Below, one piece after another: positions 47,338-64,000 of a DNA stretch of 64,000 bases. A model generated the notes under the pieces. That model did not search any database. It was not told where the DNA came from and saw only the letters and a list, made by a program, of their open reading frames with translations. The stretch's first letter is position 1. Every line of letters begins with the position of its first letter. This DNA is from an uncultured beta proteobacterium (GTDB lineage Bacteria; Pseudomonadota; Gammaproteobacteria; Burkholderiales; SG8-39): assembly GCA_963810475.1 (NCBI GenBank), contig CAWENY010000015.1, forward strand, positions 399-64,398, given 5' to 3'. The position numbers were made by a program, and so were the translations under genes.

Positions 47338-48588
47338 ATGTCGAGCAATACCAGTCGCAGGAATTTCATTCGCAAGACCGCAGCACTCACCGGAGGTGCC
47401 TTCGCAGCCGCCGGTAGCGCGCGCGCCGCCCCGCTGCCGATCCCGCAGACCAACCAGGAGCCCGGCCGCATCATCGAGGAGACGGCATACGGCATGCCCT
47501 CGAAGTACGAGGCGCACGTCAAGCGCCGGCGCACCGATGTGTTCAAGAACCGGCAGAACCTGTCGGACTGGAGCATGACGCCGCTGCAGCACCAGCCCGG
47601 CATCATCACGCCGAACGGCCTGATCTACGAGCGCCATCATGCCGGTACGCCCGACATCGACCCGCGCACGCACAAGCTCGTGATCCACGGCCTGGTGAAG
47701 CAGCCGCTGGAATTCTCCATGGACGATCTGCACCGCTATCCCTCGGTGTCGCGCTTCTACTTCATGGAGTGCTCGGGCAACGGCCTGACCGATTGGCTCA
47801 AGCCGGCGTCGACCACGGTGCAGCAGACGCACGGCCTGCTCTCGGGCGCGCTGTGGACCGGCGTTCTCATGTCGACACTGCTCGAAGAGGCGGGCATCGA
47901 TCCGAAGGCCAAGTGGGCGCTGCTGGAAGGCGCCGATTCCTCGGCGCACACGCGCTCGGTGCCGATGGAGAAGATGCTCGACGACACGATGATCGTGTAC
48001 GCGATGAACGGCGAGGCGCTGCGCCCGGAGAACGGTTACCCGGTGCGCGCGTTCCTCCCCGGCTGGGAAGGCAACATCTGCGTGAAGTGGCTGCGGCGTA
48101 TCGAGCTGGGCGAGCAGCCCTGGCACTTCCGCAGCGAGACCGCGCGCTACACCGACCCGATGCCGGGCGGCAAGTGGCGCCAGTTCAGCATGGTGATGGA
48201 GACCAAGTCGGTGATCACCAATCCATCGGGCGGCATGAAGATGAAGGGCCCGGGCTTCTACGAGATCACCGGGCTCGCGTGGTCGGGCGCGGGCAAGATC
48301 CGCGCGGTCGACGTCTCGGTCGACGGCGGCAAGAACTGGCGCGAGGCGAAGCTCGAGGAGCCGGTCATGGACAAGTGCCTGACGCGCTTCAAGGCCGCGT
48401 GGAATTGGGACGGCTCGCCCGCCGTGCTGATGAGCCGCGCGGTGGACAGCAACGGCTACGTACAGCCGACGGTGCAGGATCTGCAGAAGAAACGCGCGAT
48501 CGTGGGCTTCGTGCAGCACCACAACGGGATCCAGCCATGGGCGGTATCGGCCAACGGGGAGGTGCGCAATGTCATCGGCCAAGCCTAA
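47338..48588 (+). CDS. soxC: sulfite dehydrogenase molybdopterin subunit (SoxC/SorA type)
   Basis: Tat signal SRRNFIRKTAAL. ITPNGLIYERHHAG, FMECSGNG. GGAGGAGG Shine-Dalgarno sequence upstream. Confidence 0.9.
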   Translation: MSSNTSRRNFIRKTAALTGGAFAAAGSARAAPLPIPQTNQEPGRIIEETAYGMPSKYEAHVKRRRTDVFKNRQNLSDWSMTPLQHQPGIITPNGLIYERHHAGTPDIDPRTHKLVIHGLVKQPLEFSMDDLHRYPSVSRFYFMECSGNGLTDWLKPASTTVQQTHGLLSGALWTGVLMSTLLEEAGIDPKAKWALLEGADSSAHTRSVPMEKMLDDTMIVYAMNGEALRPENGYPVRAFLPGWEGNICVKWLRRIELGEQPWHFRSETARYTDPMPGGKWRQFSMVMETKSVITNPSGGMKMKGPGFYEITGLAWSGAGKIRAVDVSVDGGKNWREAKLEEPVMDKCLTRFKAAWNWDGSPAVLMSRAVDSNGYVQPTVQDLQKKRAIVGFVQHHNGIQPWAVSANGEVRNVIGQA

Positions 48589-49219
48589 GTTTTTCGCGGT
48601 CATCGCCGCGTCCGCGCTGGTCGCCGCTTGCGCCGGCACCGGTGGTAGCAGCGCCCCAGCCAAGACCTCGAACGGCATCTGGATGGGCACTACGGCGCCG
48701 CATCCGGTGCAGCCGCTCGCGGACAAGCCGCGCTTCGGCAAGCCGATCAGCGAGGCCGACCTCGCGGCGTGGAACATCGACATCCGTACGCCCGACGGGC
48801 AGGGCCTGCCCGCGGGCAGCGGAACGGTTTCCCAGGGCCAGCAGGTCTATGCGGCGAAGTGCGCCGCGTGCCATGGCGCCGACGCCAAGGGCGGCGCGGT
48901 CTACGGCACGATGGTCGGCGGCATCGGCTCGATGAACAGCTCGCCGCGCGTGCTCACCCCGGGCAGCATGTACCCGTACGCCCCGATCCTTTTCGACTAC
49001 ATCCGCCGCTCGATGCCGATGGATCGGCCGCAGACCCTGACCAACAATGAGGTGTATGCGCTTTCGGCGTACCTGCTCAACCTGAACGGCCTGGTGCCGG
49101 CCGACGCGGTGATGGACGCGCAAAGCCTGCCGAAGGTGCAGATGCCGAACCGCGCCGCTTTCCTGATCGACGACCGGCCCGATGCGCAGGCGACGCGCTG
49201 CATGGCCAATTGCAAGTGA
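48569..49219 (+). CDS. soxD: c-type cytochrome partner of SoxC (SoxD/SorB-like, monohaem)
   Basis: Single CAACHG haem site. A lipobox-like LVAAC follows the signal sequence. Overlaps the soxC 3' end by 20 nt. Confidence 0.8.
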   Translation: MSSAKPKFFAVIAASALVAACAGTGGSSAPAKTSNGIWMGTTAPHPVQPLADKPRFGKPISEADLAAWNIDIRTPDGQGLPAGSGTVSQGQQVYAAKCAACHGADAKGGAVYGTMVGGIGSMNSSPRVLTPGSMYPYAPILFDYIRRSMPMDRPQTLTNNEVYALSAYLLNLNGLVPADAVMDAQSLPKVQMPNRAAFLIDDRPDAQATRCMANCK

Positions 49220-49236
49220 CACGATGGGCGGGACAC

Positions 49237-49263
49237 GGCCGGGTCACCCCGGCCGTTTTGTTT
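49237..49263 (+). terminator. rho-independent terminator after soxD
   Basis: GGCCGGG-TCAC-CCCGGCC hairpin followed by GTTTTGTTT. Confidence 0.65.
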
Positions 49264-49300
49264 CCGCGTAGCAGAGAATTTCGTTAGGAGGTATTACCGC

Positions 49301-50518
49301 ATGGCCAAATCAGCCGCCGACTGGAACGCACCGCCGAAGTTTCCCGCGACGCACTACGTCGATTCCCGCATCTACACCGATCAATCCATCTTCGACGAGG
49401 AGATGGAGAAGCTGTTCAAGCCGTCGTGGATCATCGCCTGCCACGAATCCGAGATCGCCAATGCGTTCGATTACCGGCTGTTCACGCATCCGAGCGGCGT
49501 GCCGCTGATCATCGTGCGCGGCGACGACATGAACGTGCGCAGCTTCTACAACATCTGTCCGCACCGGGGCAACACCATCCTGTACGACCCGGCGGGCAAC
49601 GCGAAGCGCATGACCTGCATCTTCCACCAGTGGTCGTTCGATGCGCGCGGCAACTGCATCGACATCTCGCGCGCCGAGCAGGGCTATCAGGACCGCTTCT
49701 GCAAGGAGGACGCGGGCCTGCGCGAGGTGAAATGCGAGATCGGCTTCGGCGGCTTCGTCTGGGTCAACCTCGACGACGCCAGCGGCACGCTGAAGGAGTT
49801 CGTCGGTCCGGCGATGGACATCCTGGCGCCGTACATGGTCGAGCCGATGGAGGTGTTCCACTTCAACCGCGCCGTGGTCGACACCAACTACAAGCTCTGG
49901 CACGACACCAACAGCGAGTTCTACCACGACTTCGTGCACTACTTTAATCGCATCACCGGCATGATGCAGCCCGGCTATTACGACCGCAAATACACCGCGT
50001 TCGCGAACGGTCATGCCACCGTCGGTTCGATGCAGATCCAGTACGACAAGTACGAAGGCTCGAAGGCGCGCGCGGTCGGCTGGCCCGGCCTGGCGCCGGG
50101 CGGCTGGTACATGGTGGACCTCTTCCCGGGGATGACTTACAACCTGCGCACCTCGGTGCTGCGCATCGACACCGCCATCCCGCTGGGGCCGAACAAGGTC
50201 GCGATCGAGTTCCGTGGCCTGGGCCTGAAGAGCGATACGCCGGAGCAGCGCGCGCAGCGCATCTTCGACCACAACACGATCTGGGGCCCGTTCGGTCGCA
50301 ACCTGCACGAGGACCTGCTCGCGGTGCACGGCCAGGGCCGCGCGATGCGCGAGCGCACCGGCAGCCGCTGGGTGATCCAGGGTCGCGAAGAGAACAGCAC
50401 GATCCACGACGAGGTCGGCATGCGCCACTTTTACGCAGAGTGGAGCCGGCGCATGGGACGCCCGGCGCACGACCCGTTGCGCGAGAACCGGCCCGCGCCG
50501 GCGCGCGCGGCGGCGTGA
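49301..50518 (+). CDS. Rieske non-haem iron oxygenase, alpha (catalytic) subunit
   Basis: Rieske CPHRG-x..-CIFHQW (CxH-x17-CxxH). Putative mononuclear-iron region YKLWHDTNSEFYHDFVH. AGGAGG Shine-Dalgarno sequence. Confidence 0.9.
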   Translation: MAKSAADWNAPPKFPATHYVDSRIYTDQSIFDEEMEKLFKPSWIIACHESEIANAFDYRLFTHPSGVPLIIVRGDDMNVRSFYNICPHRGNTILYDPAGNAKRMTCIFHQWSFDARGNCIDISRAEQGYQDRFCKEDAGLREVKCEIGFGGFVWVNLDDASGTLKEFVGPAMDILAPYMVEPMEVFHFNRAVVDTNYKLWHDTNSEFYHDFVHYFNRITGMMQPGYYDRKYTAFANGHATVGSMQIQYDKYEGSKARAVGWPGLAPGGWYMVDLFPGMTYNLRTSVLRIDTAIPLGPNKVAIEFRGLGLKSDTPEQRAQRIFDHNTIWGPFGRNLHEDLLAVHGQGRAMRERTGSRWVIQGREENSTIHDEVGMRHFYAEWSRRMGRPAHDPLRENRPAPARAAA

Positions 50519-50526
50519 GCGCGGCC

Positions 50527-50982
50527 ATGGAGCAGCGCCAGCAGATCGAGGAGCTGGTCTACCGCTCGTGCCTCGCGCTCGACGATCGCGACTTCAAGGG
50601 ATTCCTCGCGCTGTGCGATCCGGCATTCCGCTACAAGGTCAGTGCGTACAGCCCGGAGATCCGCAAGGAGATGGTCTGGCTCGACCACGACCGCGCCGGC
50701 ATGGAGACGCTCTTCACCCAGCTGCCGCGGCACAACAGCGACCACTCGCCGCTCACGCGCCACGCCACCGTGTACACCGTCAAGGTGAACGGCACGCAGG
50801 CCGAGGTGGTGTCGGCGCTGCAGGTGTTCCGCACCTCGCTCGACGGCGGCGCCACCGAGCTCTACGGCGTGGCGCGGCTAATCGACACGGTGAAGCTCGA
50901 CGGCGGCAGCCCGAAGCTCGCCAGCCGGGTGGTGCGCATGGAAACGCGCCAGCTCGGCTTCGGCACCCATATCCCGTTCTAG
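50527..50982 (+). CDS. ring-hydroxylating oxygenase beta subunit (NTF2-like)
   Basis: 151 aa. EELVYRSCLALDDRDFKGFLALC pattern of oxygenase small subunits. Lies directly after alpha. Confidence 0.85.
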   Translation: MEQRQQIEELVYRSCLALDDRDFKGFLALCDPAFRYKVSAYSPEIRKEMVWLDHDRAGMETLFTQLPRHNSDHSPLTRHATVYTVKVNGTQAEVVSALQVFRTSLDGGATELYGVARLIDTVKLDGGSPKLASRVVRMETRQLGFGTHIPF

Positions 50983-50996
50983 GGGCCGCCGAGCGC

Positions 50997-52022
50997 ATGC
51001 GCATCCAGGTCAACGCCCGCAACCGCGGCTTCGAGTTCGACGCCGGGCCGGGAGAGCGCGTGCTCTACGCGGGCCTGCGCGCGGGCATCGACCTGCCCTA
51101 CGAGTGCGCCACCGGAACCTGCGGCACGTGCAAGGCCAAGCTGGTCTCGGGCCGGGTGGCCGACCGCTGGCCCGGCGCGCCGGGCAAGAAGTATGTGAAG
51201 CCGCAGGCGGGCGAGTTCCTCATGTGCCAGTGCGCCGCCGAGGAAGCGTTGACCCTCGAAGTCTCCAAATTCGTCTACGCAGTGGAGCCCGGCGCGTGCG
51301 TGCCGCAGACCTGCGCCGGCACTGTGCGCGGCGTGCGCGCGCTTACGCACGACGTCATGGGCTTCGCGCTCGAGCTCGAGCGGCCGCGCGACTTCGATGC
51401 CGGCCAGTTCGCGCTGCTCGCCGCCGACGGCGTAGACGGTTATCGCGCCTACTCGATGTGCAACTACGAGCGCGGCGGCCGCACGCTGGACTTCGTGGTG
51501 AAGCGCAAGCCCGACGGCGGCTTCTCGGACTGGCTGTTCGGCGCCAGCCGCGAAGGCGCCCGCCTGCAAGCGTTCGGGCCGCTCGGCAAGGCGACCTTCG
51601 ATCCCGCGCTGGGCAAGAACCTGCTGTGCATCGCCGGCGGCTCGGGCATCGCCGGCATGATGTCGATCCTGGCCCGCGCCGATGCCGCCGACTATTTTTC
51701 CAGGCATCACGGCCATGTCTTCTTCGGCATCCGGACGATGAAGGATGCTTTCTTCTTCAACGAGCTGAGCAAAACCAAAGCGGCGGTAACGGTGGCGCTT
51801 TCGGATGAGGACGTCTCCGAAAAGGCGGCCCAAGCCTGGCCCTCGTTGAAATTCGAGAAAGGCCTGGTGCACGAGGTGGCAAAGCGCGCGATGGCGGGCA
51901 AGTACCAGAACGTGCGCGCGTACGTGGCCGGCCCGCCGCCGGCGGTGGATGCCGCGATCCGCGTGCTGCTGCTGGACGCGAAGCTCACCACCGACAACAT
52001 CCGCTACGACAAATTCAGCTGA
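50997..52022 (+). CDS. oxygenase reductase: plant-type [2Fe-2S] ferredoxin + FAD/NAD(P)-binding domains
   Basis: YECATGTCGTCKAKL..FLMCQC. FAD motif RAYSMCN. NAD motif LCIAGGSGIAG. Confidence 0.9.
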   Translation: MRIQVNARNRGFEFDAGPGERVLYAGLRAGIDLPYECATGTCGTCKAKLVSGRVADRWPGAPGKKYVKPQAGEFLMCQCAAEEALTLEVSKFVYAVEPGACVPQTCAGTVRGVRALTHDVMGFALELERPRDFDAGQFALLAADGVDGYRAYSMCNYERGGRTLDFVVKRKPDGGFSDWLFGASREGARLQAFGPLGKATFDPALGKNLLCIAGGSGIAGMMSILARADAADYFSRHHGHVFFGIRTMKDAFFFNELSKTKAAVTVALSDEDVSEKAAQAWPSLKFEKGLVHEVAKRAMAGKYQNVRAYVAGPPPAVDAAIRVLLLDAKLTTDNIRYDKFS

Positions 52023-52753
52023 TGGGCAAGCGCATGGTCTGCCGCGTCGCCGACGTTCCCGAGAATTCCCTCAAGGAGTGCGAAGCCGACGGCGGGCTGA
52101 AGCTGGTGGTGGCGAACGCCGGCGGCGAGTTCGTCGGCTTCCAGGCCATGTGCCCGCACCAGGACGTTCCGCTTTGCGAGGGCCTGTTCGACGGCCAGAC
52201 GCTCACCTGCCACATGCACCTGTGGCAATGGGACGTGCGTACCGGCGCGCCGCTCGGCATCGCCGAGGCGCCGCTGCAGCGCTATGCGCTCGCGCGCGAG
52301 GGCGACGCGATCTATCTCGGCGGCGAGTCGAGCGCGCTCGACGTCGGCGAGCTCTTCAATGGACTGAATTCGTCGATCCTCGAGAAGCTGTCGGCGCTCG
52401 CGCGGCGGGAAAGCCACCCGGCGGGCGCGGTGCTCTACAAGCCGGGCGATCCGGCCGACGACCTGTACGTGCTCGATTCCGGCCGCGTCGAGTTCCTGGT
52501 GGGGCGCGGCGACCGCGCCGCGCCGGGCGGTTTCATGCTGAAGAAGGGCGAGGTGTTCGGCTGGGCGGCGCTGCTCGAAGGCTATGCGGCGCGCATCGCG
52601 AGCGCCCGCTGCCTGGAGGATGCTGTGCTCCTCAGAATCAACGGCAAGGCCGCGCTGCGGGTCCTGGAAAGCGACCCGGCGTCGGGTTTTGCCGTAATGC
52701 GTCGGCTGGCCGCGCTCATCGCGCGTTATCTGGCCACATCGGGGGCGAAATGA
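52022..52753 (+). CDS. Rieske-type ferredoxin fused to a C-terminal cNMP-binding-like domain
   Basis: N-terminal ~105 aa with CPHQDVPLC..CHMHLWQW. The C-terminal ~135 aa have a CAP-effector-like beta-roll (VLYKPGDPADDLYVLDSGRVEFLV..GEVFGWAALL..RIASARCLEDAVLLRI). No stop or start codon at the junction. Confidence 0.85.
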   Translation: MGKRMVCRVADVPENSLKECEADGGLKLVVANAGGEFVGFQAMCPHQDVPLCEGLFDGQTLTCHMHLWQWDVRTGAPLGIAEAPLQRYALAREGDAIYLGGESSALDVGELFNGLNSSILEKLSALARRESHPAGAVLYKPGDPADDLYVLDSGRVEFLVGRGDRAAPGGFMLKKGEVFGWAALLEGYAARIASARCLEDAVLLRINGKAALRVLESDPASGFAVMRRLAALIARYLATSGAK

Positions 52754-53835
52754 AACGAATCTTGGTGCTGTTGGCAATGCTGGGGATGGGCAGTGCGGGG
52801 GCGCAGCCCGTCAAGCTCGTGGTCGGGTACCAGCCGTACGACACGATTTCCTACTCGGCGGTGGTGATCCGCGCCCTCGATCTGTGGAAGAAGCACCTCC
52901 CGCCGGGCAGCGAGGTCGAGTTCCAGAACGCGCTGCAGGGCTCGATCATCGTCAACAACATGCTCGCCAACAAGCAGCAGATCGGCTACCTCGGCGACAT
53001 GCCGGCGGTGGTCGCCACGACCAAAAGGAGCGTGGCGCCGGTCAACCTGGTAGCGAACACCGGCTTCTCGCCCGGGCAGCGCTGCAACGTAATCATGGTC
53101 CGTGCCGACGCGCCGAAGTTCAAGTCGCCCGAAGAGGCGGTCAAGTGGCTGGACGGCAAGCAGCTTGCCACGCCGCAGGGCAGCTGCGCGCACCGCTTCC
53201 TCGGCCTGGTGATCGAGCGCACCAAGATCAAGCCCGCGGCGATCCTCAACCAGTCGATCGAGGTGATCGCCACCAACCTGCGCCAAGGCAAGATCGACGG
53301 CGCGGTCCTGTGGGAGCCTTCGGTGTCGCGCATCGGGGACATCGTCGGCGAAGGCTCGGGGCGCATCGTCGCCACGGGCCACACCTTCGGCATCCCGGAC
53401 GCCGGCGCGATCGCGATGCGCGAAGACTTCATGAAGAGCCGGCCGGATCTAGTCGAAGCGTGGCTGAAGATCGAGCTCGAGGCGCAGCAGTACGTGCTCG
53501 ATCCGAAGAACTGGACCAAGGTCGCCGAGTTCGTGAAGAGCCAGACGGCCGGCATCAGCGTGCCGATGGCGTGGTTCTCGATCTACGGGCAGATCCCGGC
53601 TTCGGCCGGCGGCAGCCCGATCCGCGACGAAAAGCCGTTCGTGTTCGACCCCCGCGTCCAGAAGCTGCTCGCGGAGACCTACGTCTATCTGCACCAGGCG
53701 AAGGCGATTGACGTCGACAAGCCGGCGCCCGGCGCGCTCGACGATTCCATCGCGCGCAAGGTGGCGCAGGCCGCGAAGGTGGCGCTGCCGCTCGGCGTGA
53801 TCAAGGCGCAGGATGTTTCCCGGATGCCCAAGTAG
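52750..53835 (+). CDS. NitT/TauT-family (NMT1/SsuA-like) periplasmic substrate-binding protein 1
   Basis: Sec signal MKRILVLLAMLGMGSAGA. LVVGYQPY..IIVNNMLANKQQIGYLGDMPAVVATTK. ATGA overlap with the upstream gene. Confidence 0.85.
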   Translation: MKRILVLLAMLGMGSAGAQPVKLVVGYQPYDTISYSAVVIRALDLWKKHLPPGSEVEFQNALQGSIIVNNMLANKQQIGYLGDMPAVVATTKRSVAPVNLVANTGFSPGQRCNVIMVRADAPKFKSPEEAVKWLDGKQLATPQGSCAHRFLGLVIERTKIKPAAILNQSIEVIATNLRQGKIDGAVLWEPSVSRIGDIVGEGSGRIVATGHTFGIPDAGAIAMREDFMKSRPDLVEAWLKIELEAQQYVLDPKNWTKVAEFVKSQTAGISVPMAWFSIYGQIPASAGGSPIRDEKPFVFDPRVQKLLAETYVYLHQAKAIDVDKPAPGALDDSIARKVAQAAKVALPLGVIKAQDVSRMPK

Positions 53836-56321: not shown

Positions 56322-57140
56322 GCCGAGGACAGATTTCGATTCAGGACGTGGTGAAGGTTTACGATCCCGAGGGGGCGGCGGTGATGGCGGTCGACCACTG
56401 CTCGCTCGACATCGAGGGCGGCGAGATCTGCATGATCGTCGGGCCTTCCGGCTGCGGCAAGACGACCTTGCTCAACGCGATCGCCGGCTTCCACGAGATC
56501 ACCTCGGGCCGCATCACCATGGACGGCGAGGTGCTCTGCTCGGCGGACAAGCCGAAGTCGGAGCCCGGCCCGGACCGCATCGTGGTGTTCCAGAACGGCG
56601 CGCTGTTTCCCGTGGAAATCGAACCTGGAGAACGTGATCTTCGGCCCGATGATGCAGGGCAAGCTCGATCGCAAGGCGGCGATCGAGAAGGGGCGCGCGA
56701 TGATGGCCGACGCCGGCCTGTCGGGCGTGGAGCACAACTATCCCGGCGAAGTGTCCTCGGGCATGCGCCGGCGCGTCGAGATCGTGCGCGCGCTGATGAA
56801 CGACCCGAAGGTCCTGCTGCTGGACGAGCCCTACCGCGCGCTCGACTCGCTCACCAAGAGCGTGATGCACGAGGCGCTGCTCGAGATCTACTACAAGAAC
56901 AAGGTCACCATCTTCTTCATCACGCACGACCTGGAGGAGGCCATCTTCCTCGGCCACCGCGTCGCCATCATGACCACGCGGCCGTGCAAGCCGAAGAAGG
57001 TGCTGAGCGTCGACATCCCGCATCCGCGCGACTACAGCGTGCTGACCTCGAAGCGCTTCCGCGAGCTGATCGAGGAGACCAACGACGCCGTGCACGAGGA
57101 GGCCCTGAAGGCTTTCCAGGCCGGAGAGAAAGAAGGATGA
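56318..57140 (+). pseudogene. ABC transporter ATP-binding protein (NitT/TauT family), one frameshift as read
   Basis: Walker A GPSGCGKTT and VVFQNGALFP in frame 1. After an extra G near 56612 the rest continues in frame 2: (W)KSNLENVIFGP..SSGMRRRVEIVRAL..LLLDEPYRALD..ITHDLEEA. Confidence 0.8.
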
Positions 57141-57200
57141 AGAAAGTTCCTGTCGAGCCCCGCCTTCTGGCGCGGCGCCGCCTCCATCGTCATTTTCCTG

Positions 57201-58001: not shown

Positions 58002-58852
58002 GACCAAAAATCATTCCTGGCGAGATCTCCGTCCAGGGCGTGAGCAAGTCGTACGGCGCAACCCAGTTCCGCAAGGAAGTGGTGCACGACTGCTCGTTCA
58101 CGATCGAGCGCTCGAAGCTCACCGTCATGGTCGGCCCCTCGGGCTGCGGCAAGAGCACCCTGATTCGGCTGCTCGCCGGCTTCGAGCAACCCACCACCGG
58201 CAAGATCCTCCTCGACGGTGCGCCGGTCGCGGAGCCGAGCCGGGACCGGCTGGTGGTATTCCAGGAAACCGCGCTGTTTCCCTGGATGACCACGTGGGAC
58301 AACATCCTTTACGGCCCGCGCGCGCGCGGCGAACTCACGCGCGAAAGCTTCGCCTTCGGCGAATTCCTCCTCAACAAGGTCGGCCTGCAGGAATTCCGCG
58401 ACAAGTACCCGGGCCAGCTTTCCGGCGGCATGCAGCGCCGCGCCGAGCTTGCCCGCGCCATGATCAACAACCCCAAGGTCATGATCCTCGACGAGCCGTT
58501 CCGCGGCCTCGACGCCATGACCAAGGAGCTGATGTGGGAGTACTACTCCAGGCTGTATGAAGAGAACCGGCGCACCAATTTCTTCGTCACCACGGACATC
58601 GACGAGGCGGTGTTCCTCGCCGACCGGATCCTCGTTATGTCCAACATCCCGACCCAGGTGCGCGCCACCATCGAGGTCGACCTGCCGCGGCCGCGCAAGC
58701 TGCTCGACATCTTCGAGAACGACCGCGCCAACGACATCAAGAAGCAGGCGCTCTCCATCCTGCACGCCGAGGCGATGCGCTCGTTCTCGCGCGGCTCCAA
58801 GGCCGCCGCCGACTTCGTCGACGCCTACCTCAAGCGCTCCAGCGGCGCCTGA
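57983..58852 (+). CDS. ABC transporter ATP-binding protein (NitT/TauT family), second copy
   Basis: GPSGCGKST, VVFQETALFPWMTTWDNILYG, LSGGMQRRAELARAM, ILDEPFRGLD. Confidence 0.9.
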   Translation: MAEITLRPKIIPGEISVQGVSKSYGATQFRKEVVHDCSFTIERSKLTVMVGPSGCGKSTLIRLLAGFEQPTTGKILLDGAPVAEPSRDRLVVFQETALFPWMTTWDNILYGPRARGELTRESFAFGEFLLNKVGLQEFRDKYPGQLSGGMQRRAELARAMINNPKVMILDEPFRGLDAMTKELMWEYYSRLYEENRRTNFFVTTDIDEAVFLADRILVMSNIPTQVRATIEVDLPRPRKLLDIFENDRANDIKKQALSILHAEAMRSFSRGSKAAADFVDAYLKRSSGA

Positions 58853-59043: not shown

Positions 59044-59044
59044 C

Positions 59045-59932
59045 CTAAAGGGGATTGTCGCGCGGACGGCGGCGTTTAGGGTCGTAGAACGGCAGCGCGG
59101 CGACGCGGGCGACGCGGCCGTCGCCGAGCCGTACCACGCTGCCGGTGTCGAGCGTAGGAGGGCTGACGAAACCCAGCGCCAGCGACTTGCCGAAAGTGGG
59201 CGAGAAGCATTCGCTCGTGACCTTGGCGGGCGGCAGGTCGGAGCGGCCGGGCCCGTCCAGGATGTCGAGGCCGACCAGCCGCCGTTCAGCATCAAACGTC
59301 ATGTTTGGAGCAAAGCGTTCCAAGCCCAGCTCGCGAGGGTTGGCGCGGCCGTCGACCTCGCGGTCGAAGAGCACGTAGCCGGCTTCGATGCGCAGGCTGT
59401 CGGCCGCCGCCCAGCTGCAGGCGCGCAGTCCTTCGTTGCGCCCGGCCTCGAGCAGCTTGTGACGCAGCGTTGCCGCTTCCGACGCGGGCACCAGCAATTC
59501 GTAGCCGAGCTCCCCGCTGAAGCCCAGACGCGCGACGATCAGGCCGTCCTTTTCCAGGAAGCGGAAATAGCGCAGGTTGGTGACGGCGTCGGGGCCGAGC
59601 AGGCGCGCCAGGATCCACCCGCTCGCCGGTCCCTGTAGCGCGAGGATGGCGAAGGCGCCGGAAACATCGTGGCCGCCGAAGCCGGCACGACGGCCGGTGA
59701 ACAGCCAGAAGCGCTCGGCGTCGAGGCGCCAGACGGTCGCATCGATGAGCACCGCGCCGTCATCGTTGATCAGCAGCGTGTAGGCGATCTGGCCGGGGAC
59801 GAGGTGCTCGAGGTTGCGCGTCTGCAGGCGCTGGAGCTCGGACTTCTCGTAGAACTCGTAAAGGCCCATGAAGGAAAAGTCGAACAGGCCGGCGGAACGC
59901 CGGGTGGCAAGATGCTCCTCGACGGCGCTCAT
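59045..59932 (-). CDS. aminomethyltransferase-family (GcvT-like, folate-binding) protein
   Basis: ATG 59932 forms an ATGA overlap with the tauE-like stop. AGLFDFSFMGLYEF, ILALQGP, GFSGELGYELLV, ADSLRIEAGYVLF. Confidence 0.8.
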   Translation of the reverse strand: MSAVEEHLATRRSAGLFDFSFMGLYEFYEKSELQRLQTRNLEHLVPGQIAYTLLINDDGAVLIDATVWRLDAERFWLFTGRRAGFGGHDVSGAFAILALQGPASGWILARLLGPDAVTNLRYFRFLEKDGLIVARLGFSGELGYELLVPASEAATLRHKLLEAGRNEGLRACSWAAADSLRIEAGYVLFDREVDGRANPRELGLERFAPNMTFDAERRLVGLDILDGPGRSDLPPAKVTSECFSPTFGKSLALGFVSPPTLDTGSVVRLGDGRVARVAALPFYDPKRRRPRDNPL

Positions 59933-60654
59933 AGGGTACGAAGGAGCAGCAGGCCGCCGGTCGCGACGCAGAGAAGGCCGGCGAGCCGCCGCAGGACGAG
60001 CGCACTCGCGACGTGGGCCAGGCGCACGCCCGCGACCACGCCCAGCAGCTCGAACAGCGTGATCACGGCCGCCGTATTCCAGTCGATGAACCCATGGCGA
60101 TAGTTCTCGACCGACCCCGAGGTGGCAGCGACGATCTGCAGCACCTGGCTGGTGGCGACCGCGGTGAGCGGGGCATAGCGCAGGATCACCATCAGCGGCA
60201 CCGAGAACAGCGGCCCGCCGGCGCCCGAGAATCCAGAGCCGAAGCCCGAGGCCGCGCCGACGCCGGCAAGGAGCCATGTCTCGCCGGACGCGCGCCCCTC
60301 GCGCGGCTTTACCGGGAAAAGGACGTAGATGCCGGCGCTAACGATGATGAGGGCGATGAAGATGGCAAGCGGCCGGGCGTCAATCACCGCCGCCACCGCC
60401 GCGCCGAAGAAGCCGAAGACAAGGGCGGCGGCGCACACGGGGATGGAGATGCGCCAGTCGATGCTGCCGCGGCGCTGGTAGAGGAACGTGCCGAGGATGC
60501 CGGTGAAGAGGAAGCTGAAAAGCGACGTGGCGGCAGCCTGATGGATGCTCAGGCCTCCGAACAGCGCCAGGAACGAAACCATCAGCACGCCGCCGACGCC
60601 CACCGTGCCGATGAGCAGTCCGACGAGCGACGCCACCGCCGCCACAGCCACCAA
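59929..60654 (-). CDS. TauE/SafE-family sulfite exporter-like membrane protein
   Basis: 241 aa, about 7-8 TM. GLLIGTVGVGGVLMV..AAATSLF and GAASGFGSGFSGAGGPLFSVPLM repeats are typical of DUF81/TauE. Confidence 0.9.
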   Translation of the reverse strand: MVAVAAVASLVGLLIGTVGVGGVLMVSFLALFGGLSIHQAAATSLFSFLFTGILGTFLYQRRGSIDWRISIPVCAAALVFGFFGAAVAAVIDARPLAIFIALIIVSAGIYVLFPVKPREGRASGETWLLAGVGAASGFGSGFSGAGGPLFSVPLMVILRYAPLTAVATSQVLQIVAATSGSVENYRHGFIDWNTAAVITLFELLGVVAGVRLAHVASALVLRRLAGLLCVATGGLLLLRTL

Positions 60655-60671: not shown

Positions 60672-61127
60672 TCAGCCGGCGGCGAAGGCGACGAGCTCGC
60701 TGGTGAGGAGGACAGCGAGCTTCTTCATCAGCCCATAGCCGATGGAGGCATCGTTCTCCATCAGCCGCATCAGCGCTGCGCCGTCGATCGCAACCACGTC
60801 GCAGGCCGTAAGGCAGTACGCCGTTGCGATGCGCCGGGCGTGGCCTTCGACCAGCGGTGCCCAGCCGAAAACATCGCCGCGGCGGATGATGTCGCCCGCC
60901 GCGGTGTCGCGCTTGCTCAGGCCCAGCGTGAACCGCACCATGCCGTCGGCGAGCACGTAGAAGTCGTCGACCGTGTCGCCCACGGTGTAGATGCGCGTGT
61001 CCTGCGTAAACGAGCGCGCGCGGCCGAGCGCTGCGACGCGCCCAAGCTGCGCCTCGCTCAGGCCGGAAAAGAAGCGGGCCTGGGCGAGGACGCCGGCGGC
61101 GTCAACCAGCTTTTCTCTGTTTTCCAA
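60672..61127 (-). CDS. stand-alone cNMP-binding-like domain protein (no HTH)
   Basis: 151 aa. FFSGLSEAQLGRVAAL..RIYTVGDTVDDFYVLADGMVRFTL..GDVFGWAPLVEGHARRIATAYCLT. Confidence 0.8.
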   Translation of the reverse strand: MENREKLVDAAGVLAQARFFSGLSEAQLGRVAALGRARSFTQDTRIYTVGDTVDDFYVLADGMVRFTLGLSKRDTAAGDIIRRGDVFGWAPLVEGHARRIATAYCLTACDVVAIDGAALMRLMENDASIGYGLMKKLAVLLTSELVAFAAG

Positions 61128-61992
61128 CGAGCTGCTTGAACTTGGCGAGCTCGTCTTCCTTCATGAAGACCGTGTGCTCGGGACCGGGGTAGGCGCGCTT
61201 GCGCACGTCGTCGCGGTAGTCGCTCAGGCCCTTCTCGAGAATCGGCACCAGGTCGACGTAGATCTTCGAGTGGCGCGGCGTGTGCGCCTCGTAGAGGTGG
61301 AAGAGGTCGGAGCCGATGATGTGCACGCCATGCGCGCGGTTGCCGGCGCCGAGCGAGATCACCGGCACCGGCAGGGTCTGAGCCAGGTACTCGCACACTT
61401 CGGAGGTCGTCACCTCGCACATGATCGAGAAGCAGCCGGCATCGACCATCGCCCACGCGTCGTCCACCAGCTCCTTGGCGCGGTCCGCGGTCTTGCCCTG
61501 CGCGAAGAAGCCGCCGAGCTGCGGCATGCGCATCGGCGTGATGCCGATGTGGCCCTGCACCGGGATGCCGGCCTTGACGATGGCCTCGATGTACTTGGCG
61601 TGATGCTGGTTGCCCTCGCACTTCATCACCTCGGCGCCGCCCTGCGACACGTATTTCGCCGCGTTGTCGACCGCCTGCTGGGCGGACAGGTGGAAGCTCA
61701 TGTACGGCATGTCGACCATGCGCAGGCCGTACTTCGAGCCGCGCTTCACCGCCTGCGCCATGAACATCACTTCCTCGAACGACACCGAGGTGGTGCTCTC
61801 GTGGCCGAACAGCACCATGCCGCCGGTGTCGGACACGCACAGGATGTCGATGCCGACGCGGTCGGCGATGATCGCGGTCTCGTAGTCGTACACGGCGAGC
61901 TGCACGATCGGCTCGCCTTTCTTCATCTTCTCCACCAATGACGGGATGGTGACTTTCTTGCGCGCGGGCTGCGCGGGCTTGGCGTCGGCCAT
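61102..61992 (-). CDS. panB: 3-methyl-2-oxobutanoate hydroxymethyltransferase family protein (PanB-like)
   Basis: VYDYETAIIADRVGIDILCVSDTGGMVLFGH, MKCEGN, VQGHIGITPM, FSIMCEV. It could be a pathway-specific paralog rather than the pantothenate enzyme. Confidence 0.8.
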   Translation of the reverse strand: MADAKPAQPARKKVTIPSLVEKMKKGEPIVQLAVYDYETAIIADRVGIDILCVSDTGGMVLFGHESTTSVSFEEVMFMAQAVKRGSKYGLRMVDMPYMSFHLSAQQAVDNAAKYVSQGGAEVMKCEGNQHHAKYIEAIVKAGIPVQGHIGITPMRMPQLGGFFAQGKTADRAKELVDDAWAMVDAGCFSIMCEVTTSEVCEYLAQTLPVPVISLGAGNRAHGVHIIGSDLFHLYEAHTPRHSKIYVDLVPILEKGLSDYRDDVRKRAYPGPEHTVFMKEDELAKFKQLVGKQRKAG

Positions 61993-62074
61993 GTTGCGAT
62001 TCCTCCTCTAGGAAACTACTTGGATAGCAAGAGCGCGCACGGAATGCAAGCCGGGTGTTTCCCCAGGAAACGCC

Positions 62075-62623
62075 TCAGGTCACGTTTCGGCGGCTGCGTT
62101 TCAATCCCCACTGCCGGCGTCGCATCCACAACGCTTTTCGTCCGATCCCGAGCATGCGCGCGAGCTCGATTTCGCTGTAGGAATCCTGGAAGCGCTCGAC
62201 CACCTCGCGGATGTACTCCTCGATGGCCAGCGGGCGCGCGCCGCCGGGCAGCGCCTGGCGCCGCCGGTTCAGGGCGCGCGCCACGGCGCGCAAAAACTCG
62301 TCGTTATTGAACGGCTTGATCACGTAGTCGACCGCGCCCGCGCGCAGCGCGGCGATGGCGCTTTCCATCGACGAGTAGCTGGTGATCATCACGATCGGCA
62401 GCCCCGGGTGGCGGCCGCGCAGCACCGCGATCACGTCGAGCCCGGTGCCATCGGGCAGCTTGAGATCGGTAACCACCACGTCCGGCGCACGGGTGTCGAC
62501 GCGCGTCAGCGCTTCCTTCAGCGTCGCGGCGCTTTCGACCGCGTAACCTTCGCGCTCGAGCAGCAGGCTGATCACCTCCGACACGCCCGGGTCGTCGTCG
62601 ACCAGCAGCACGCGCTGATTCAT
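62075..62623 (-). CDS. response regulator, receiver + Fis-type HTH (RegA/ActR-like architecture, no AAA+ domain)
   Basis: VLLVDDDPGV, VVVTDLKLPDGTG, YVIKPF. C-terminal IELARMLGIGRKALWMRRRQWGL. ATGA overlap with the kinase stop. Confidence 0.85.
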   Translation of the reverse strand: MNQRVLLVDDDPGVSEVISLLLEREGYAVESAATLKEALTRVDTRAPDVVVTDLKLPDGTGLDVIAVLRGRHPGLPIVMITSYSSMESAIAALRAGAVDYVIKPFNNDEFLRAVARALNRRRQALPGGARPLAIEEYIREVVERFQDSYSEIELARMLGIGRKALWMRRRQWGLKRSRRNVT

Positions 62624-63339
62624 GTGGGCAGCACGATCTCGAAGCGCGCGCCGCCGCGCGGATCGTTCGCCGCGCGGATGCTGCCGCCGAGCTCCTGCAC
62701 GATCTCGTAGCTGATGGCGAGGCCGAGGCCCGTGCCTTCGCCGGGCGGCTTGGTGGTGAAGAAGGGGTCGAACACGCGCGGCAGATTGGCGTTGAGGATG
62801 CCGGGCCCGCTGTCGCGGATCGACAGCGTGACCTCGCCGTTCGCGGCGCGCGCCCGTGCCTCGATGCGGCCTACGCCTTCCATCGCCTGCGCCGCGTTGA
62901 GGAAGATGTTGAACACCACCTGCTCGAGCTCGCCGGAGCGCGCGAGCACCGCGACGCCGGGCGCCCCGCGGTAGTCGACCTGAACATCGTGGCCGCTGGA
63001 GCTGTGGCGCAAGAGCGCCGTCGCCGCCTCCACTGCGTCGTCGATGGCGAGCGGCGCCGGCGGCTCGCCGCCGACGCGCGAGTAGTCGCCCAGTTTCTTG
63101 GTGATGGCGAGCACGCGCGCGACATTGCTCGAGATCGAAGCCAGGCCTTTCTCCAGCGTCTCCGGCGTGACGCCGCGCTTCGACTGCAGGATCTGCAGCA
63201 TGGAGGACACCGCCGCCAGCGGGTTCGACACCTCGTGGCAAACGGACGCGAGCATGAAGCCGAGCGAGGCGAGCCGCTGGGTCTGGACGTCCGGTGACTC
63301 GGGCTGGCCTTTTACATGGGCTCGCGAATCTTCACGCAT
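62620..63339 (-). CDS. histidine kinase core only (HisKA + HATPase_c, no sensor or TM region)
   Basis: H-box SLGFMLASVCHEVSNPL. N-box FNIFLNAAQAM. G1 DSGPGI. G2 GEGTGLGLAIS. 239 aa in total. Confidence 0.85.
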   Translation of the reverse strand: MREDSRAHVKGQPESPDVQTQRLASLGFMLASVCHEVSNPLAAVSSMLQILQSKRGVTPETLEKGLASISSNVARVLAITKKLGDYSRVGGEPPAPLAIDDAVEAATALLRHSSSGHDVQVDYRGAPGVAVLARSGELEQVVFNIFLNAAQAMEGVGRIEARARAANGEVTLSIRDSGPGILNANLPRVFDPFFTTKPPGEGTGLGLAISYEIVQELGGSIRAANDPRGGARFEIVLPT

Positions 63340-63366
63340 GGATCATAAGTATGCACACTATAGGCC

Positions 63367-64000
63367 ATGAAACGCACACCTCTATACGACCAGCATGTCC
63401 GCGATGCGTCCGCGGTGATCAACCTCAAGGGATTCGCGCGCGCCATGCAGTATCGCGGCCACGCGGTGGAGCACAGGGCGACACGCGAGCAGGTCACGCT
63501 GTGCGACGTGTCGCACATGGGCGAGCTCGAGTTCAAGGGCCCGGACGCATTGGCACTGGTGCAGAAGCTGATCACCAACGACGCGGCACGCCTGGCCGTC
63601 AATCAAGCCCTCTATTCGACGATGTGCGACGAGCGCGGCATCCTCCTCGACGACCTGGTCTGCTATCGGCTGGCGGCCGATCGCTTCGTTTGGGTCGTGA
63701 ATGTCACCAAGACCGACGACGACTACCAGTGGGTGCTCAAGCACGCGCGCGGAATGGACGTGCAGGTGACGAAATTTCAAGCGACACTGCACTGCTCGCG
63801 CTGCAGGGACCGCAATCGAGGGAAACCCTGCAGCGCATCGCGCAGGCGGACCTGTCCAGCCTCAGGTACTACTGGCTGACCCAGACCGCGGTCCACACAA
63901 GGCATGCCGAAGTCCCTTGCATCATCAGCCGTACGGGATATACCGGCGAGCTCGGCTACGAAATCATGGTGGCGCGCGATCTCGCGCCGTGGGTTTGGGA
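63367..64000 (+). pseudogene. aminomethyltransferase-family (GcvT-like) protein, one frameshift as read; 3' end outside window
   Basis: MKRTPLYDQH..VTLCDVSHMGELEFKGPDA in frame 1 to ..GMDVQV. The continuation DEISSDTALLALQGPQSRETL..ISRTGYTGELGYEIMV is in another frame, with 1 nt missing near 63766-63768. Confidence 0.8.

What the first reader, a model, noticed from the sequence alone, without database searches (positions are those of the whole stretch)
47338..64000. Candidate oxygenolytic organosulfonate / C1-releasing catabolic island of unknown substrate
Seen, plus strand:
- soxC-soxD, followed by a terminator.
- Rieske oxygenase alpha, beta, FNR-type reductase and Rieske ferredoxin.
- Two NMT1/SsuA-like binding proteins, two permeases and two ATPases of NitT/TauT type.
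Seen, minus strand: a TauE/SafE-family protein, a GcvT-family protein, a PanB-family enzyme and a kinase/regulator pair. A second GcvT-family gene lies on the plus strand at the window edge.
Established:
- NitT/TauT importers carry sulfonates, taurine or nitrate.
- TauE/SafE proteins export sulfite or sulfoacetate in sulfonate degraders.
- SoxCD/SorAB oxidise sulfite.
- Multicomponent Rieske oxygenases desulfonate methanesulfonate and arylsulfonates. The methanesulfonate system is MsmABCD with an adjacent MsmEFGH importer whose order, as I recall, is binding protein-permease-ATPase-permease.
- GcvT and PanB families use tetrahydrofolate C1 units.
Inference: the locus imports a small sulfonated and/or methylated compound and cleaves it oxygenolytically. 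It would trap the C1 product on folate and dispose of sulfite by oxidation or export.
It is not a simple MsmA ortholog. The Rieske spacing here is the ordinary CxH-x17-CxxH, whereas MsmA was reported (from memory) to have an unusually long spacer.
Basis: partly seen in the sequence, partly recalled or inferred. Interest (0 to 1): 0.7.

Follow-up and report, generated by a model that had tools for sequence, protein, structure and literature searches.

The report
Short-spacer methanesulfonate breakdown gene island
This chromosomal gene cluster of a soil or freshwater betaproteobacterium most likely imports methanesulfonate, splits it into formaldehyde and sulfite with a four-part iron-sulfur oxygenase, and disposes of both products; it is an untested variant of a known system, not a new kind of pathway.

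Summary

- **Oxygenase.** Alpha, beta, FNR-type reductase and Rieske ferredoxin each match methanesulfonate monooxygenase MsmABCD at 39-54% identity.
- **Importer.** It has the MsmEFGH order plus a second ATPase, as in Filomicrobium Y.
- **Accessory genes.** TauE, GcvT-like, PanB-like and SoxCD also flank the msm operons of Filomicrobium Y, a proven methanesulfonate degrader (PMC4433239).
- **Alpha subunit.** It belongs to the short-spacer (CXH-X17-CXXH) MsmA-like clade, sister to the X26 clade. This clade was noted in 2015 in Methyloversatilis and Methylibium but never tested.
- **Conservation.** The core is syntenic in 80 species-level genomes. Of these, 46 carry SoxCD or SoeABC sulfite dehydrogenase and 29 carry a folate-C1 gene nearby.

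Best reading: a methanesulfonate catabolic island, confidence about 0.6.

I found no prior mention of the three non-canonical cNMP-binding-like domains, on the ferredoxin, on a permease and free-standing.

Three frameshifts are probably sequence errors. The response regulator lacks its AAA+ domain.

Verdict: known kind, new variant, moderate interest.

The parts
47338..48588 (+). SoxC-type molybdenum sulfite dehydrogenase catalytic subunit with a twin-arginine leader (SRRNFI)
   Evidence: Pfam Oxidored_molyb + Mo-co_dimer. NCBIfam TIGR04555 equivalog, 611.7 bits against cut-off 420. Found next to the oxygenase in 37 of 80 related loci.
48569..49219 (+). SoxD-like monohaem cytochrome c (one CAACH motif, lipoprotein-like leader), the electron acceptor of SoxC
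   Evidence: Pfam Cytochrom_C / Cytochrome_CBB3. Co-occurs with SoxC in 39 loci.
49235..49266 (+). Intrinsic-terminator-like hairpin (9 bp stem, 8 G-C pairs) plus T-run after soxD
   Evidence: sequence read.
49301..50518 (+). MsmA-like hydroxylase alpha subunit, short-spacer type (CPH-x17-CIFH)
   Evidence: Pfam Rieske + Ring_hydroxyl_A. 53-54% identical to X26 MsmA-like proteins of M. nodulans pMNOD01 and Burkholderia RPE67. Sister clade to X26 in the tree. The 120 best database hits and all 80 loci are X17.
50527..50982 (+). MsmB-like hydroxylase beta subunit (NTF2/SnoaL fold)
   Evidence: Pfam Ring_hydroxyl_B / SnoaL_4. 39-48% identical to MsmB-like proteins. Present in 79 of 80 loci.
50997..52022 (+). 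MsmD-like reductase (plant-type 2Fe-2S, FAD and NAD domains)
   Evidence: Pfam Fer2, FAD_binding_6, NAD_binding_1. 48-50% identical to the reductases of the X26 clusters.
52022..52753 (+). MsmC-like Rieske ferredoxin (residues 1-100) fused to a C-terminal cNMP-binding-like domain (residues ~110-243)
   Evidence: Pfam Rieske + cNMP_binding. Rieske part 39-47% identical to MsmC-like proteins of 105-122 aa that have no fusion. The fusion is present in 62 of 71 loci that cover the ferredoxin gene.
52750..53835 (+). Periplasmic binding protein 1 (SsuA/TauA family, Sec leader); an extra copy found in only about 5 related loci
   Evidence: Pfam NMT1_2. NCBIfam SsuA_fam/TauA below cut-off. Distribution.
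53862..54977 (+). Periplasmic binding protein 2, MsmE-like (SsuA/TauA family, twin-arginine-like leader)
   Evidence: Pfam NMT1_2. NCBIfam. Closest solved structure is the taurine-binding protein, 5.6e-10. Present in 66 loci. Published msmE trees include the Methyloversatilis FAM5 contig that is L073 here (PMC5068391).
54978..56321 (+). MsmF-like ABC permease with an N-terminal cNMP-binding-like domain (residues ~40-130)
   Evidence: Pfam cNMP_binding + BPD_transp_1. NCBIfam SaoP/NtrB/TauC-type permease. Fused in 44 of 57 loci that cover the gene.
56318..57140 (+). MsmG-like ABC ATPase 1; a one-base insertion near 56606 splits the reading frame
   Evidence: relatives lack the extra base. NCBIfam taurine/nitrate/SaoA type.
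57137..58001 (+). MsmH-like ABC permease 2; a one-base insertion right after ATGAAGAAA (~57143)
57983..58852 (+). Second NitT/TauT-type ABC ATPase, in the same position as the ATPase downstream of msmH in Filomicrobium Y
   Evidence: Pfam ABC_tran. NCBIfam. PMC4433239 Table 1.
59045..59932 (-). Short GcvT-like folate-binding protein (295 aa); its start overlaps the tauE stop by 4 bases
   Evidence: Pfam GCV_T + GCV_T_C. NCBIfam GcvT models all below cut-off; also matches the C-terminal part of the TMAO demethylase model. Present in 18-20 related loci.
59929..60654 (-). TauE/SafE-family anion exporter, the presumed sulfite exporter
   Evidence: Pfam TauE, 124 bits. Present in 24 related loci. 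Also beside msm genes in M. nodulans and Filomicrobium Y.
60672..61127 (-). Free-standing cNMP-binding-like protein (151 aa)
   Evidence: Pfam cNMP_binding, 50.7 bits. Shares the VFGWA...R[IL]A[ST] motif with the two fused domains.
61102..61992 (-). PanB paralogue (ketopantoate hydroxymethyltransferase family, methylene-tetrahydrofolate dependent)
   Evidence: Pfam Pantoate_transf, 268 bits. TIGR00222 212.5 against 207.55; NF001452 243 against 272. Catalytic D/D/K/E/H/E conserved against E. coli 1m3u. Only 1e-38 to the Burkholderia PanB structures. 79-96% identical copies in 11 related loci.
62075..62623 (-). Response regulator reduced to a receiver domain plus a C-terminal helix-turn-helix; the sigma-54 AAA+ domain of its orthologues is missing
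   Evidence: Pfam Response_reg. Two-piece match to NtrC-type orthologues in L014, L038, L041, L071, L073 and L078.
62620..63339 (-). Histidine kinase core (HisKA + HATPase_c) without the N-terminal region of about 125 or more residues seen in orthologues
   Evidence: Pfam.
63367..64000 (+). Second GcvT-family gene, cut by the window end, with a one-base deletion near 63770. It may be the housekeeping gcvT and not part of the system.
   Evidence: Pfam GCV_T, 200 bits. NCBIfam PRK00389, 209 bits over the 211 residues present.

Best explanation
The locus is a methanesulfonate (MSA) catabolic island built around a short-spacer relative of MSA monooxygenase.

Proposed steps:
1. One or two periplasmic SsuA-type proteins bind MSA. 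A heterodimeric NitT/TauT-type ABC importer with two permeases and two ATPases brings it in.
2. NADH electrons pass from the FNR-type reductase to the Rieske ferredoxin and then to the alpha/beta hydroxylase. The hydroxylase hydroxylates the methyl carbon. The product, hydroxymethanesulfonate, falls apart into formaldehyde and sulfite.
3. TauE exports sulfite. The periplasmic SoxCD-type dehydrogenase oxidises it to sulfate and passes electrons to cytochrome c.
4. The GcvT-like protein captures the C1 unit on tetrahydrofolate. The C1 unit is then used by the PanB paralogue or oxidised further. Relatives carry formate-tetrahydrofolate ligase at this place.
5. A two-component system controls expression. 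It is sigma-54 type in relatives.
6. The three cNMP-binding-like domains probably adjust import and electron supply after translation.

Shown: gene identities, homology to MsmABCD, synteny and associations. Inferred: the substrate, the direction of each step, and every regulatory role.
For: 1. Component-by-component homology to X26 msmABCD of M. nodulans pMNOD01: A 54%, B 39%, C 47% (Rieske part), D 50%.
2. In an NJ tree the window clade and the X26 clade form one group with 100% bootstrap. Outgroups are X17, so the long spacer is a derived insertion.
3. Of 116 alignment columns at least 90% conserved within both clades (118 and 114 sequences), 110 hold the same residue. These include the block around the iron ligands. 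Four of the six differences flank the insertion.
4. The importer order is binding protein, permease, ATPase, permease, ATPase. This equals msmE-F-G-H plus the following ATPase in Filomicrobium Y.
5. Filomicrobium Y, which grows on MSA, has TauE, GcvT, PanB, SoxC and SoxD beside its msm operons. That is the window's accessory set.
6. In the 80 related genomes, 46 loci have SoxCD or SoeABC. SoeA identity is confirmed by source names. TauE is in 24 loci and Fhs, GcvT-like or PanB-like in 29. Fhs lies directly upstream of alpha in 12. Two unrelated sulfite dehydrogenases and three folate-C1 enzymes recruited to the same core point to a substrate that yields both sulfite and a C1 unit.
7. JGI's pipeline names these proteins MSA monooxygenase large subunit.
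Against: 1. The only published sequence signature of MsmA, CXH-X26-CXXH, is absent. Every organism proven to grow on MSA has the long spacer. The 2015 authors regarded the X17 annotation as unproven.
2. No X17 enzyme has been assayed. In Methyloversatilis FAM5 the predicted MSA genes were silent on methanol and methylamine. This is neutral.
3. That paper lists both a long-spacer MsmA from Ralstonia PBA and short-spacer polypeptides from 'Ralstonia sp.'. If these are one strain, the two forms co-occur, which would hint at different substrates. Not verified.
4. Gene presence does not guarantee growth. Variovorax WS11, with X26 msmABCD, did not grow on MSA.
5. Seven of 40 loci of at least 15 kb show no sulfite or C1 gene within reach.
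6. In this window two importer genes are frameshifted and the regulator pair is truncated.
Confidence: 0.6

Rival explanations
1. The machinery works in the same way but on a different small sulfonate. Candidates are ethane- or propanesulfonate, isethionate, sulfoacetate or N-methyltaurine. The X17 clade would then be a paralogue of MSA monooxygenase with shifted specificity.
For: - The MsmA signature is absent and no X17 enzyme has been tested.
- Identity to the X26 proteins is only about 50%.
- Some X26 clusters (L081, Burkholderia RPE67) carry aldehyde dehydrogenases. This shows that the family is used in different contexts.
- The window has two divergent binding proteins.
Against: - C2 and longer sulfonates give acetaldehyde or larger aldehydes. 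No aldehyde dehydrogenase was recognised among the genes I identified in the X17 loci.
- What is linked instead is C1-specific: Fhs, GcvT-like and PanB-like.
- The accessory set equals that of an MSA grower.
- Residues conserved in both clades are nearly all identical.
Confidence: 0.2
2. The oxygenase is a demethylase or hydroxylase of a non-sulfonated methyl compound, such as a betaine, carnitine or a methylated sulfur compound. The sulfite genes would be neighbours for another reason.
For: - GcvT-family and folate genes often accompany N- or S-demethylases.
- The GbcA model gives a partial match of 103 bits.
- Carnitine oxygenase matches the Rieske part.
Against: - The GbcA score is far below its cut-off of 670. 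The PDB matches cover mainly the Rieske domain.
- The nearest clade by far is MsmA-like.
- The binding proteins and permeases are of the sulfonate/taurine/nitrate type.
- Sulfite dehydrogenases of two unrelated kinds recur next to the core in 46 of 80 loci.
Confidence: 0.04
3. Whatever the ancestral function, this copy is decaying and no longer works. Two importer genes and one GcvT gene are frameshifted, the regulator has lost its AAA+ domain, and the kinase has lost its N-terminal part.
For: frameshifts absent from relatives; two-piece match of the regulator, truncated kinase.
Against: - A phosphomannomutase/phosphoglucomutase-type gene elsewhere in the window (~29.8-31.1 kb) is also broken by two frameshifts. 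Indels therefore look like a property of the sequence, not of the island.
- Two of the three indel sites adjoin short same-base runs (TTTCCC, AAA).
- All other island genes are intact with strong third-position GC bias.
- The regulator deletion is in frame.
Confidence: 0.15

Closest known systems
Filomicrobium sp. strain Y msm region (GenBank KM879220; Henriques & De Marco 2015, PMC4433239)
   Same: It has the same modules: msmABCD-type four-component oxygenase; msmE-F-G-H plus a further NitT/TauT ATPase; TauE/SafE; GcvT; PanB (3-methyl-2-oxobutanoate hydroxymethyltransferase); SoxC and SoxD.
   Different: - Filomicrobium MsmA has the X26 spacer; the window has X17.
- Gene order there is A-B-C-D with the importer divergent. 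Here it is A-B-D-C with the importer co-directional downstream.
- By gene size, Filomicrobium MsmC (~125 aa) and MsmF (~295 aa) have no cNMP-like domain.
- It has a LysR regulator there and a two-component pair here.
- I could not align sequences because KM879220 is not in the searchable collections.
MsmABCD / MsmEFGH of Methylosulfonomonas methylovora M2, the characterised MSA monooxygenase and its transporter
   Same: Four components (alpha, beta, ferredoxin, reductase). The importer has the order binding protein, permease, ATPase, permease.
   Different: The defining X26 Rieske spacer is absent. The operons are divergent in M2. The X26 reference used was M. nodulans pMNOD01.
Short-spacer (n = 17) 'MsmA' of Methyloversatilis universalis FAM5, Methylibium petroleiphilum PM1, Thiobacillus spp. 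and others, noted in PMC4433239
   Same: This is the clade the window belongs to. The FAM5 contig NZ_AFHG01000044 is locus L073, with alpha 73% identical and the same core including both cNMP-like fusions.
   Different: FAM5 has SoeABC and a SulP permease instead of SoxCD, and a full NtrC-type regulator. Function is untested in any member.
Methylobacterium nodulans ORS 2060 plasmid pMNOD01 cluster (msmABCD-like, TauE, SorAB-like)
   Same: Oxygenase followed by a TauE exporter and a molybdenum sulfite dehydrogenase with cytochrome c. Identities to the window: A 54%, B 39%, C 47%, D 50%, TauE 30%, Mo subunit 30%.
   Different: X26 spacer. MFS transporter instead of an ABC importer. No GcvT or PanB genes within 10 kb. 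No cNMP-like domains.

Membership tests
Methanesulfonate monooxygenase (MsmABCD) | Four components: hydroxylase alpha and beta, Rieske-type ferredoxin, and 2Fe-2S/FAD/NAD reductase | tested here: met
   Pfam domains. Each component is 39-54% identical to the X26 clusters.
Methanesulfonate monooxygenase (MsmABCD) | MsmA Rieske motif CXH-X26-CXXH, proposed as the signature specific to MsmA (PMC4433239) | tested here: not met
   The window has CPH-x17-CIFH. All 120 best hits and all 80 loci are X17. Literature statement.
Methanesulfonate monooxygenase (MsmABCD) | Alpha subunit groups with MsmA rather than with other Rieske oxygenases | tested here: met
   The joint X17 + X26 clade has 100% bootstrap. 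X17 is the sister group, not nested. 110 of 116 columns conserved in both clades are identical. Caveat: NJ tree, and the X26 clade is identified by motif and operon, not by a characterised sequence.
Methanesulfonate monooxygenase (MsmABCD) | Adjacent MsmEFGH-type NitT/TauT ABC importer | tested here: met
   Binding protein(s), permease, ATPase, permease, ATPase at 52750-58852. The order matches Filomicrobium Y.
Methanesulfonate monooxygenase (MsmABCD) | MSA-dependent NADH oxidation with release of sulfite and formaldehyde; growth on MSA | not testable with these tools
   I found no experimental data for any X17 member in the held literature.
SoxC-type sulfite dehydrogenase (SoxCD/SorAB kind) | Full-length match above the curated cut-off, a periplasmic targeting signal, and a partner cytochrome c | tested here: met
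   TIGR04555, 611.7 against 420. SRRNFI leader. Adjacent monohaem cytochrome. No other sox genes were recognised in the window.
Canonical cyclic-nucleotide-binding (CAP/PKA-type) domain | Domain fold match above the Pfam gathering score | tested here: met
   PF00027 scores 50.7-56.7 bits against 27.5 for all three copies.
Canonical cyclic-nucleotide-binding (CAP/PKA-type) domain | Phosphate-binding cassette with F-G-E (Glu to the ribose 2'-OH) and R-[ST/A]-A (Arg to the phosphate). Residue roles are from my own knowledge of CRP and PKA. | tested here: not met
   Glu is replaced by Trp (VFGWA) in all three window copies and in the consensus of 131 domains from related loci. The Arg is kept (R-[IL]-A-[ST]). 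The ligand therefore cannot be assumed to be cAMP or cGMP.
PanB (3-methyl-2-oxobutanoate hydroxymethyltransferase) | Equivalog-level score and conserved catalytic residues | tested here: inconclusive
   TIGR00222 is just above its cut-off (212.5 against 207.55). NF001452 is below (243 against 272). The residues aligned to E. coli D45, D84, K112, E114, H136 and E181 are conserved (residue roles from memory). Similarity to the Burkholderia PanB structures is weak, 1e-38, which suggests a paralogue. The substrate is unknown.
Glycine-cleavage T protein (GcvT) | Score above the equivalog cut-off | tested here: not met
   For the 295-aa minus-strand protein: PRK00389 133 against 300; TIGR00528 106 against 236. 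It is a member of the folate-binding GCV_T superfamily only.
NtrC-type sigma-54 response regulator | Receiver, AAA+ sigma-54 interaction domain and Fis-type helix-turn-helix | tested here: not met
   The window protein has the receiver and the C-terminal helix-turn-helix only. Orthologues align in two pieces, with about 250 residues missing in the window.

The most novel reading that the evidence does not exclude
The three cNMP-binding-like domains carry Trp in place of the ribose-binding Glu. They sit on the Rieske ferredoxin, on the first importer permease and in a free-standing protein beside TauE. They may form a shared sensor for a pathway metabolite such as methanesulfonate, sulfite or hydroxymethanesulfonate, rather than for a cyclic nucleotide. 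If so, one ligand would gate uptake and electron delivery to the oxygenase at the protein level. I know of no such control for a Rieske oxygenase electron carrier or for a NitT/TauT importer.

A second reading is also not excluded. The conserved PanB paralogue and short GcvT-like protein may together move the hydroxymethyl group of hydroxymethanesulfonate or formaldehyde via tetrahydrofolate onto a 2-oxoacid.
Probability: 0.2. Interest if true: 0.65.

Novelty: new variant of a known kind. Interest (0 to 1): 0.4.

Why it matters
Methanesulfonate is a major product of atmospheric dimethylsulfide oxidation and reaches soils and waters with rain. Surveys for its degraders use msmA and treat the 26-residue Rieske spacer as the mark of a true enzyme (PMC4433239, PMC5068391).

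If the short-spacer clade is active on methanesulfonate, that criterion excludes a large group of soil, groundwater and freshwater Betaproteobacteria. At least 80 species-level genomes are involved, including Methyloversatilis and Polynucleobacter-like lineages.

The comparative evidence here turns a question left open in 2015 into a directly testable one. Cultured strains that carry the same cluster are named.

The cNMP-like domain fusions add a possible new layer of control over oxygenase electron supply and import.

Tried and rejected
- **Betaine, carnitine or stachydrine-type demethylase.** Rejected. GbcA scores 103 bits against a cut-off of 670. PDB matches (CntA, Stc2-like) are weak and mostly confined to the Rieske domain.
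- **Equivalog for alpha or beta.** NCBIfam has none. No solved structure is close.
- **Finding the characterised MsmA by name.** A second homologue search seeded with the X26 representative P0121 did not list it among the 120 best. X26 references were taken from annotated plasmids and the signature from the literature.
- **Pseudogenised island.** Largely rejected. A phosphomannomutase/phosphoglucomutase-type gene elsewhere in the window has two frameshifts too.
- **Horizontally acquired genomic island.** No support. GC content is flat across the window. Flanks are housekeeping genes. I recognised no mobility genes. The upstream flank is collinear with L001.
- **Promoters.** The sigma-70 scan found none. 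The sigma-54 consensus search gave fewer hits than chance. No promoter is claimed.
- **Literature tools.** They failed eleven times (one search was my malformed query) before working. De Marco 1999, Jamshad 2006 and the FAM5 genome note are not held.
- **Structure prediction.** Not run. Model coordinates cannot be inspected for the pocket, and only window sequences could be used for the cNMP-like domains.

Full report
**Observation.**

Third-position GC profiles and ORF maps give a clean gene map for 47.3-64 kb.

- SoxC passes the TIGR04555 sulfite dehydrogenase equivalog (612 bits against a cut-off of 420) and has a twin-arginine leader.
- The next gene is a monohaem cytochrome c.
- A strong hairpin with a T-run follows at 49235-49256.
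- Then come a Rieske alpha subunit (CPH-x17-CIFH), a beta subunit, a Fer2/FAD/NAD reductase and a Rieske ferredoxin.
- After these come two SsuA/NMT1-type binding proteins, a permease, an ATPase, a second permease and a second ATPase.
- On the minus strand lie a short GcvT-like protein, TauE, a PanB-family protein, a response regulator and a histidine kinase.
- A further GcvT gene starts at 63367.

They lie on the C-terminus of the ferredoxin, on the N-terminus of the first permease, and in a free-standing 151-aa protein between tauE and the panB-like gene.

**Sequence quality.**

ATPase 1, permease 2 and the edge GcvT each carry a one-base indel that all aligned relatives lack. A phosphomannomutase/phosphoglucomutase-type gene at about 29.8-31.1 kb is also broken twice. 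I therefore treat the frameshifts as indel errors of the sequence rather than decay of the island.

Two other defects are not of that kind:
- The regulator aligns to its NtrC-type orthologues in two pieces. The sigma-54 AAA+ domain of about 250 residues is absent.
- The kinase lacks the N-terminal 125 or more residues of its orthologues.

**What the oxygenase is.**

No NCBIfam equivalog and no close solved structure exist for the alpha subunit.

- The 120 best database relatives (69-99% identity) all have the X17 spacer. Several are named methanesulfonate monooxygenase large subunit by JGI's pipeline.
- A search of one representative per 50% cluster shows the nearest other full-length cluster, P0121 at 49% identity, has the X26 spacer.
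- Its operon reads GntR, alpha, beta, 113-aa Rieske ferredoxin, then reductase in one of the two contexts seen.
- Annotated plasmids give further X26 examples. M. nodulans pMNOD01 has a 414-aa alpha followed by beta, ferredoxin, reductase, TauE and a molybdenum enzyme with cytochrome c. Burkholderia RPE67 p3 is the other.
- The window's four components are 54, 39, 47 and 50% identical to those of M. nodulans.
- In a bootstrapped NJ tree, X17 and X26 sequences form one clade (100%) within X17 outgroups. The window clade is the sister group of the X26 sequences.
- Of 116 columns at least 90% conserved within both clades, 110 carry the same residue. Four of the six differences flank the insertion.

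**What the literature says.**

Henriques and De Marco (PMC4433239) state the following:
- CXH-X26-CXXH is conserved in every MsmA from organisms proven to grow on methanesulfonate.
- Short-spacer (n = 17) proteins annotated as MsmA exist in Methylibium PM1, Methyloversatilis FAM5, Ralstonia, Rhodocyclaceae RZ94 and Thiobacillus.
- There were no hard data on their function.

The FAM5 contig they cite is my locus L073. I found nothing later that tests them. In FAM5 the predicted methanesulfonate genes were silent on methanol and methylamine.

The same paper lists the genes beside msmABCD and msmEFGH in Filomicrobium Y, which grows on methanesulfonate. They are TauE/SafE, GcvT, 3-methyl-2-oxobutanoate hydroxymethyltransferase, SoxC, SoxD, and a NitT/TauT ATPase just after msmH. 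That is the window's accessory set and its importer order.

**Comparative genomics.**

A scan of species-representative genomes returned 236 relatives. The best 80 are 71-95% identical and all X17. They are almost all Burkholderiales or other Betaproteobacteria from soil, groundwater and fresh water. Cultured Methyloversatilis strains and a Polynucleobacter-like genome are among them.

| Feature | Loci (of 80) |
|---|---|
| Core from alpha to ATPase 2 | 50-79, depending on the gene |
| SoxC | 37 |
| SoeABC, the unrelated cytoplasmic sulfite:quinone dehydrogenase | about 13 |
| SoxCD or SoeABC | 46 |
| TauE | 24 |
| Formate-tetrahydrofolate ligase directly upstream of alpha | 12 |
| GcvT-like | 18-20 |
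| PanB paralogue (79-96% identical) | 11 |
| Any folate-C1 gene | 29 |

The SoeA identity is backed by source names. Of the 40 loci of at least 15 kb, 33 have a sulfite or a C1 gene. No aldehyde dehydrogenase was recognised among the genes I identified in the X17 loci. Two X26 clusters do carry one. The recurring partners fit a substrate that yields sulfite and a one-carbon unit. The simplest such substrate is methanesulfonate.

**Mechanism.**

The domain identities and associations above are shown. The rest is inferred from established knowledge of MSA monooxygenase (PMC4433239 introduction), of TauE/SafE exporters, of SoxCD/SorAB sulfite dehydrogenases and of folate-binding GcvT-family proteins.

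The inferred sequence is import by the ABC system, then hydroxylation of the methyl carbon with NADH electrons relayed by the reductase and the ferredoxin. The product breaks down to formaldehyde and sulfite. Sulfite is exported and oxidised in the periplasm. The C1 unit is captured on tetrahydrofolate.

The PanB paralogue keeps the catalytic residues of E. coli PanB but is only distantly similar to Burkholderia PanB. Its acceptor substrate is unknown.

**The cNMP-like domains.**

All three window copies, and 131 copies collected from the related loci, share VFGWA...R[IL]A[ST]. CRP and PKA have FGE...R[S/A]A at this place. The phosphate-binding Arg is kept. The Glu that contacts the ribose is replaced by Trp.

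| Ferredoxin | Permease | Loci (of 57 covering both genes) |
|---|---|---|
| fused | fused | 41 |
| fused | plain | 8 |
| plain | plain | 5 |
| plain | fused | 3 |

Four of the five loci with both genes plain are the Polynucleobacter-type loci. The X26 MsmC proteins have no such domain. By gene size, neither do Filomicrobium MsmC and MsmF. I know of no description of these fusions. Their ligand and effect are unknown.

**Other structure.**

The window is 92% identical in DNA to locus L001 from 39.3 to 52.6 kb. It is only about 80% identical across the importer. L001 and its nearest kin have an unfused permease. The oxygenase and importer halves have therefore been recombined. The rest of the window is ordinary chromosome, with flat GC content.

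**Verdict.**

The locus is best read as a methanesulfonate catabolic island of the short-spacer type, with confidence about 0.6. The architecture is already known from Filomicrobium Y, and the short-spacer clade was noted in 2015. The finding is therefore a variant of a known kind. What it adds is comparative evidence that the untested clade sits in the same functional context, plus the unexplained cNMP-like fusions.

Noticed in passing
window 29766-31100, minus strand: A phosphomannomutase/phosphoglucomutase-type gene is split over three reading-frame segments by two frameshifts. This shows that single-base indels occur outside the island too.
   Followed up: partly
window 62075-63339, minus strand: The response regulator keeps the receiver and the helix-turn-helix but lacks the sigma-54 AAA+ domain present in orthologues (L014, L038, L041, L073). 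The kinase lacks their N-terminal region. The missing kinase part abuts the divergent GcvT gene.
   Followed up: partly
window 39291-52620 versus 52750-58852; locus L001: The oxygenase half and its upstream flank are 92% identical in DNA to L001. The importer half is about 80% identical and of a different type (cNMP-fused permease, extra binding protein). This suggests module exchange by recombination.
   Followed up: partly
L073 2996-7737 (Methyloversatilis FAM5); L063 2735-7223; about 13 loci in all: Where SoxCD is absent, a SoeABC-type cytoplasmic sulfite:quinone dehydrogenase lies next to the oxygenase cluster. Four loci have both.
   Followed up: yes
L063 8274-9944 and 11 other loci: Formate-tetrahydrofolate ligase lies immediately upstream of the alpha subunit gene, including in the Polynucleobacter-type genomes.
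   Followed up: yes
L081 (metagenome contig) and L085 (Burkholderia sp. RPE67 plasmid p3): Long-spacer (X26) MsmA-like clusters here carry aldehyde or lactaldehyde dehydrogenase, an epimerase/dehydratase-family protein in L081 or PrpE in L085, and a TctC or MFS transporter. They lack C1-folate genes and an ABC importer. They may act on longer-chain sulfonates.
   Followed up: no
window 45452-46345 and 46352-46900, plus strand: Two ORFs just upstream of soxC (297 aa, and 182 aa with a signal-peptide-like start) have no Pfam hit; the 297-aa one also has no NCBIfam hit. They are collinear in L001, L003 and L004. Any link to the island is unknown.
   Followed up: no
window 7643-15930, minus strand: A type IV pilus minor-pilin cluster with a 1668-aa PilY1-like protein lies in a stretch of slightly lower GC (0.64-0.66) and raised GC skew.
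   Followed up: no
window 52750-54977: The two binding proteins differ in their leaders: Sec-type for the first, twin-arginine-like for the second. The first has close counterparts in only about 5 of 80 related loci.
   Followed up: partly
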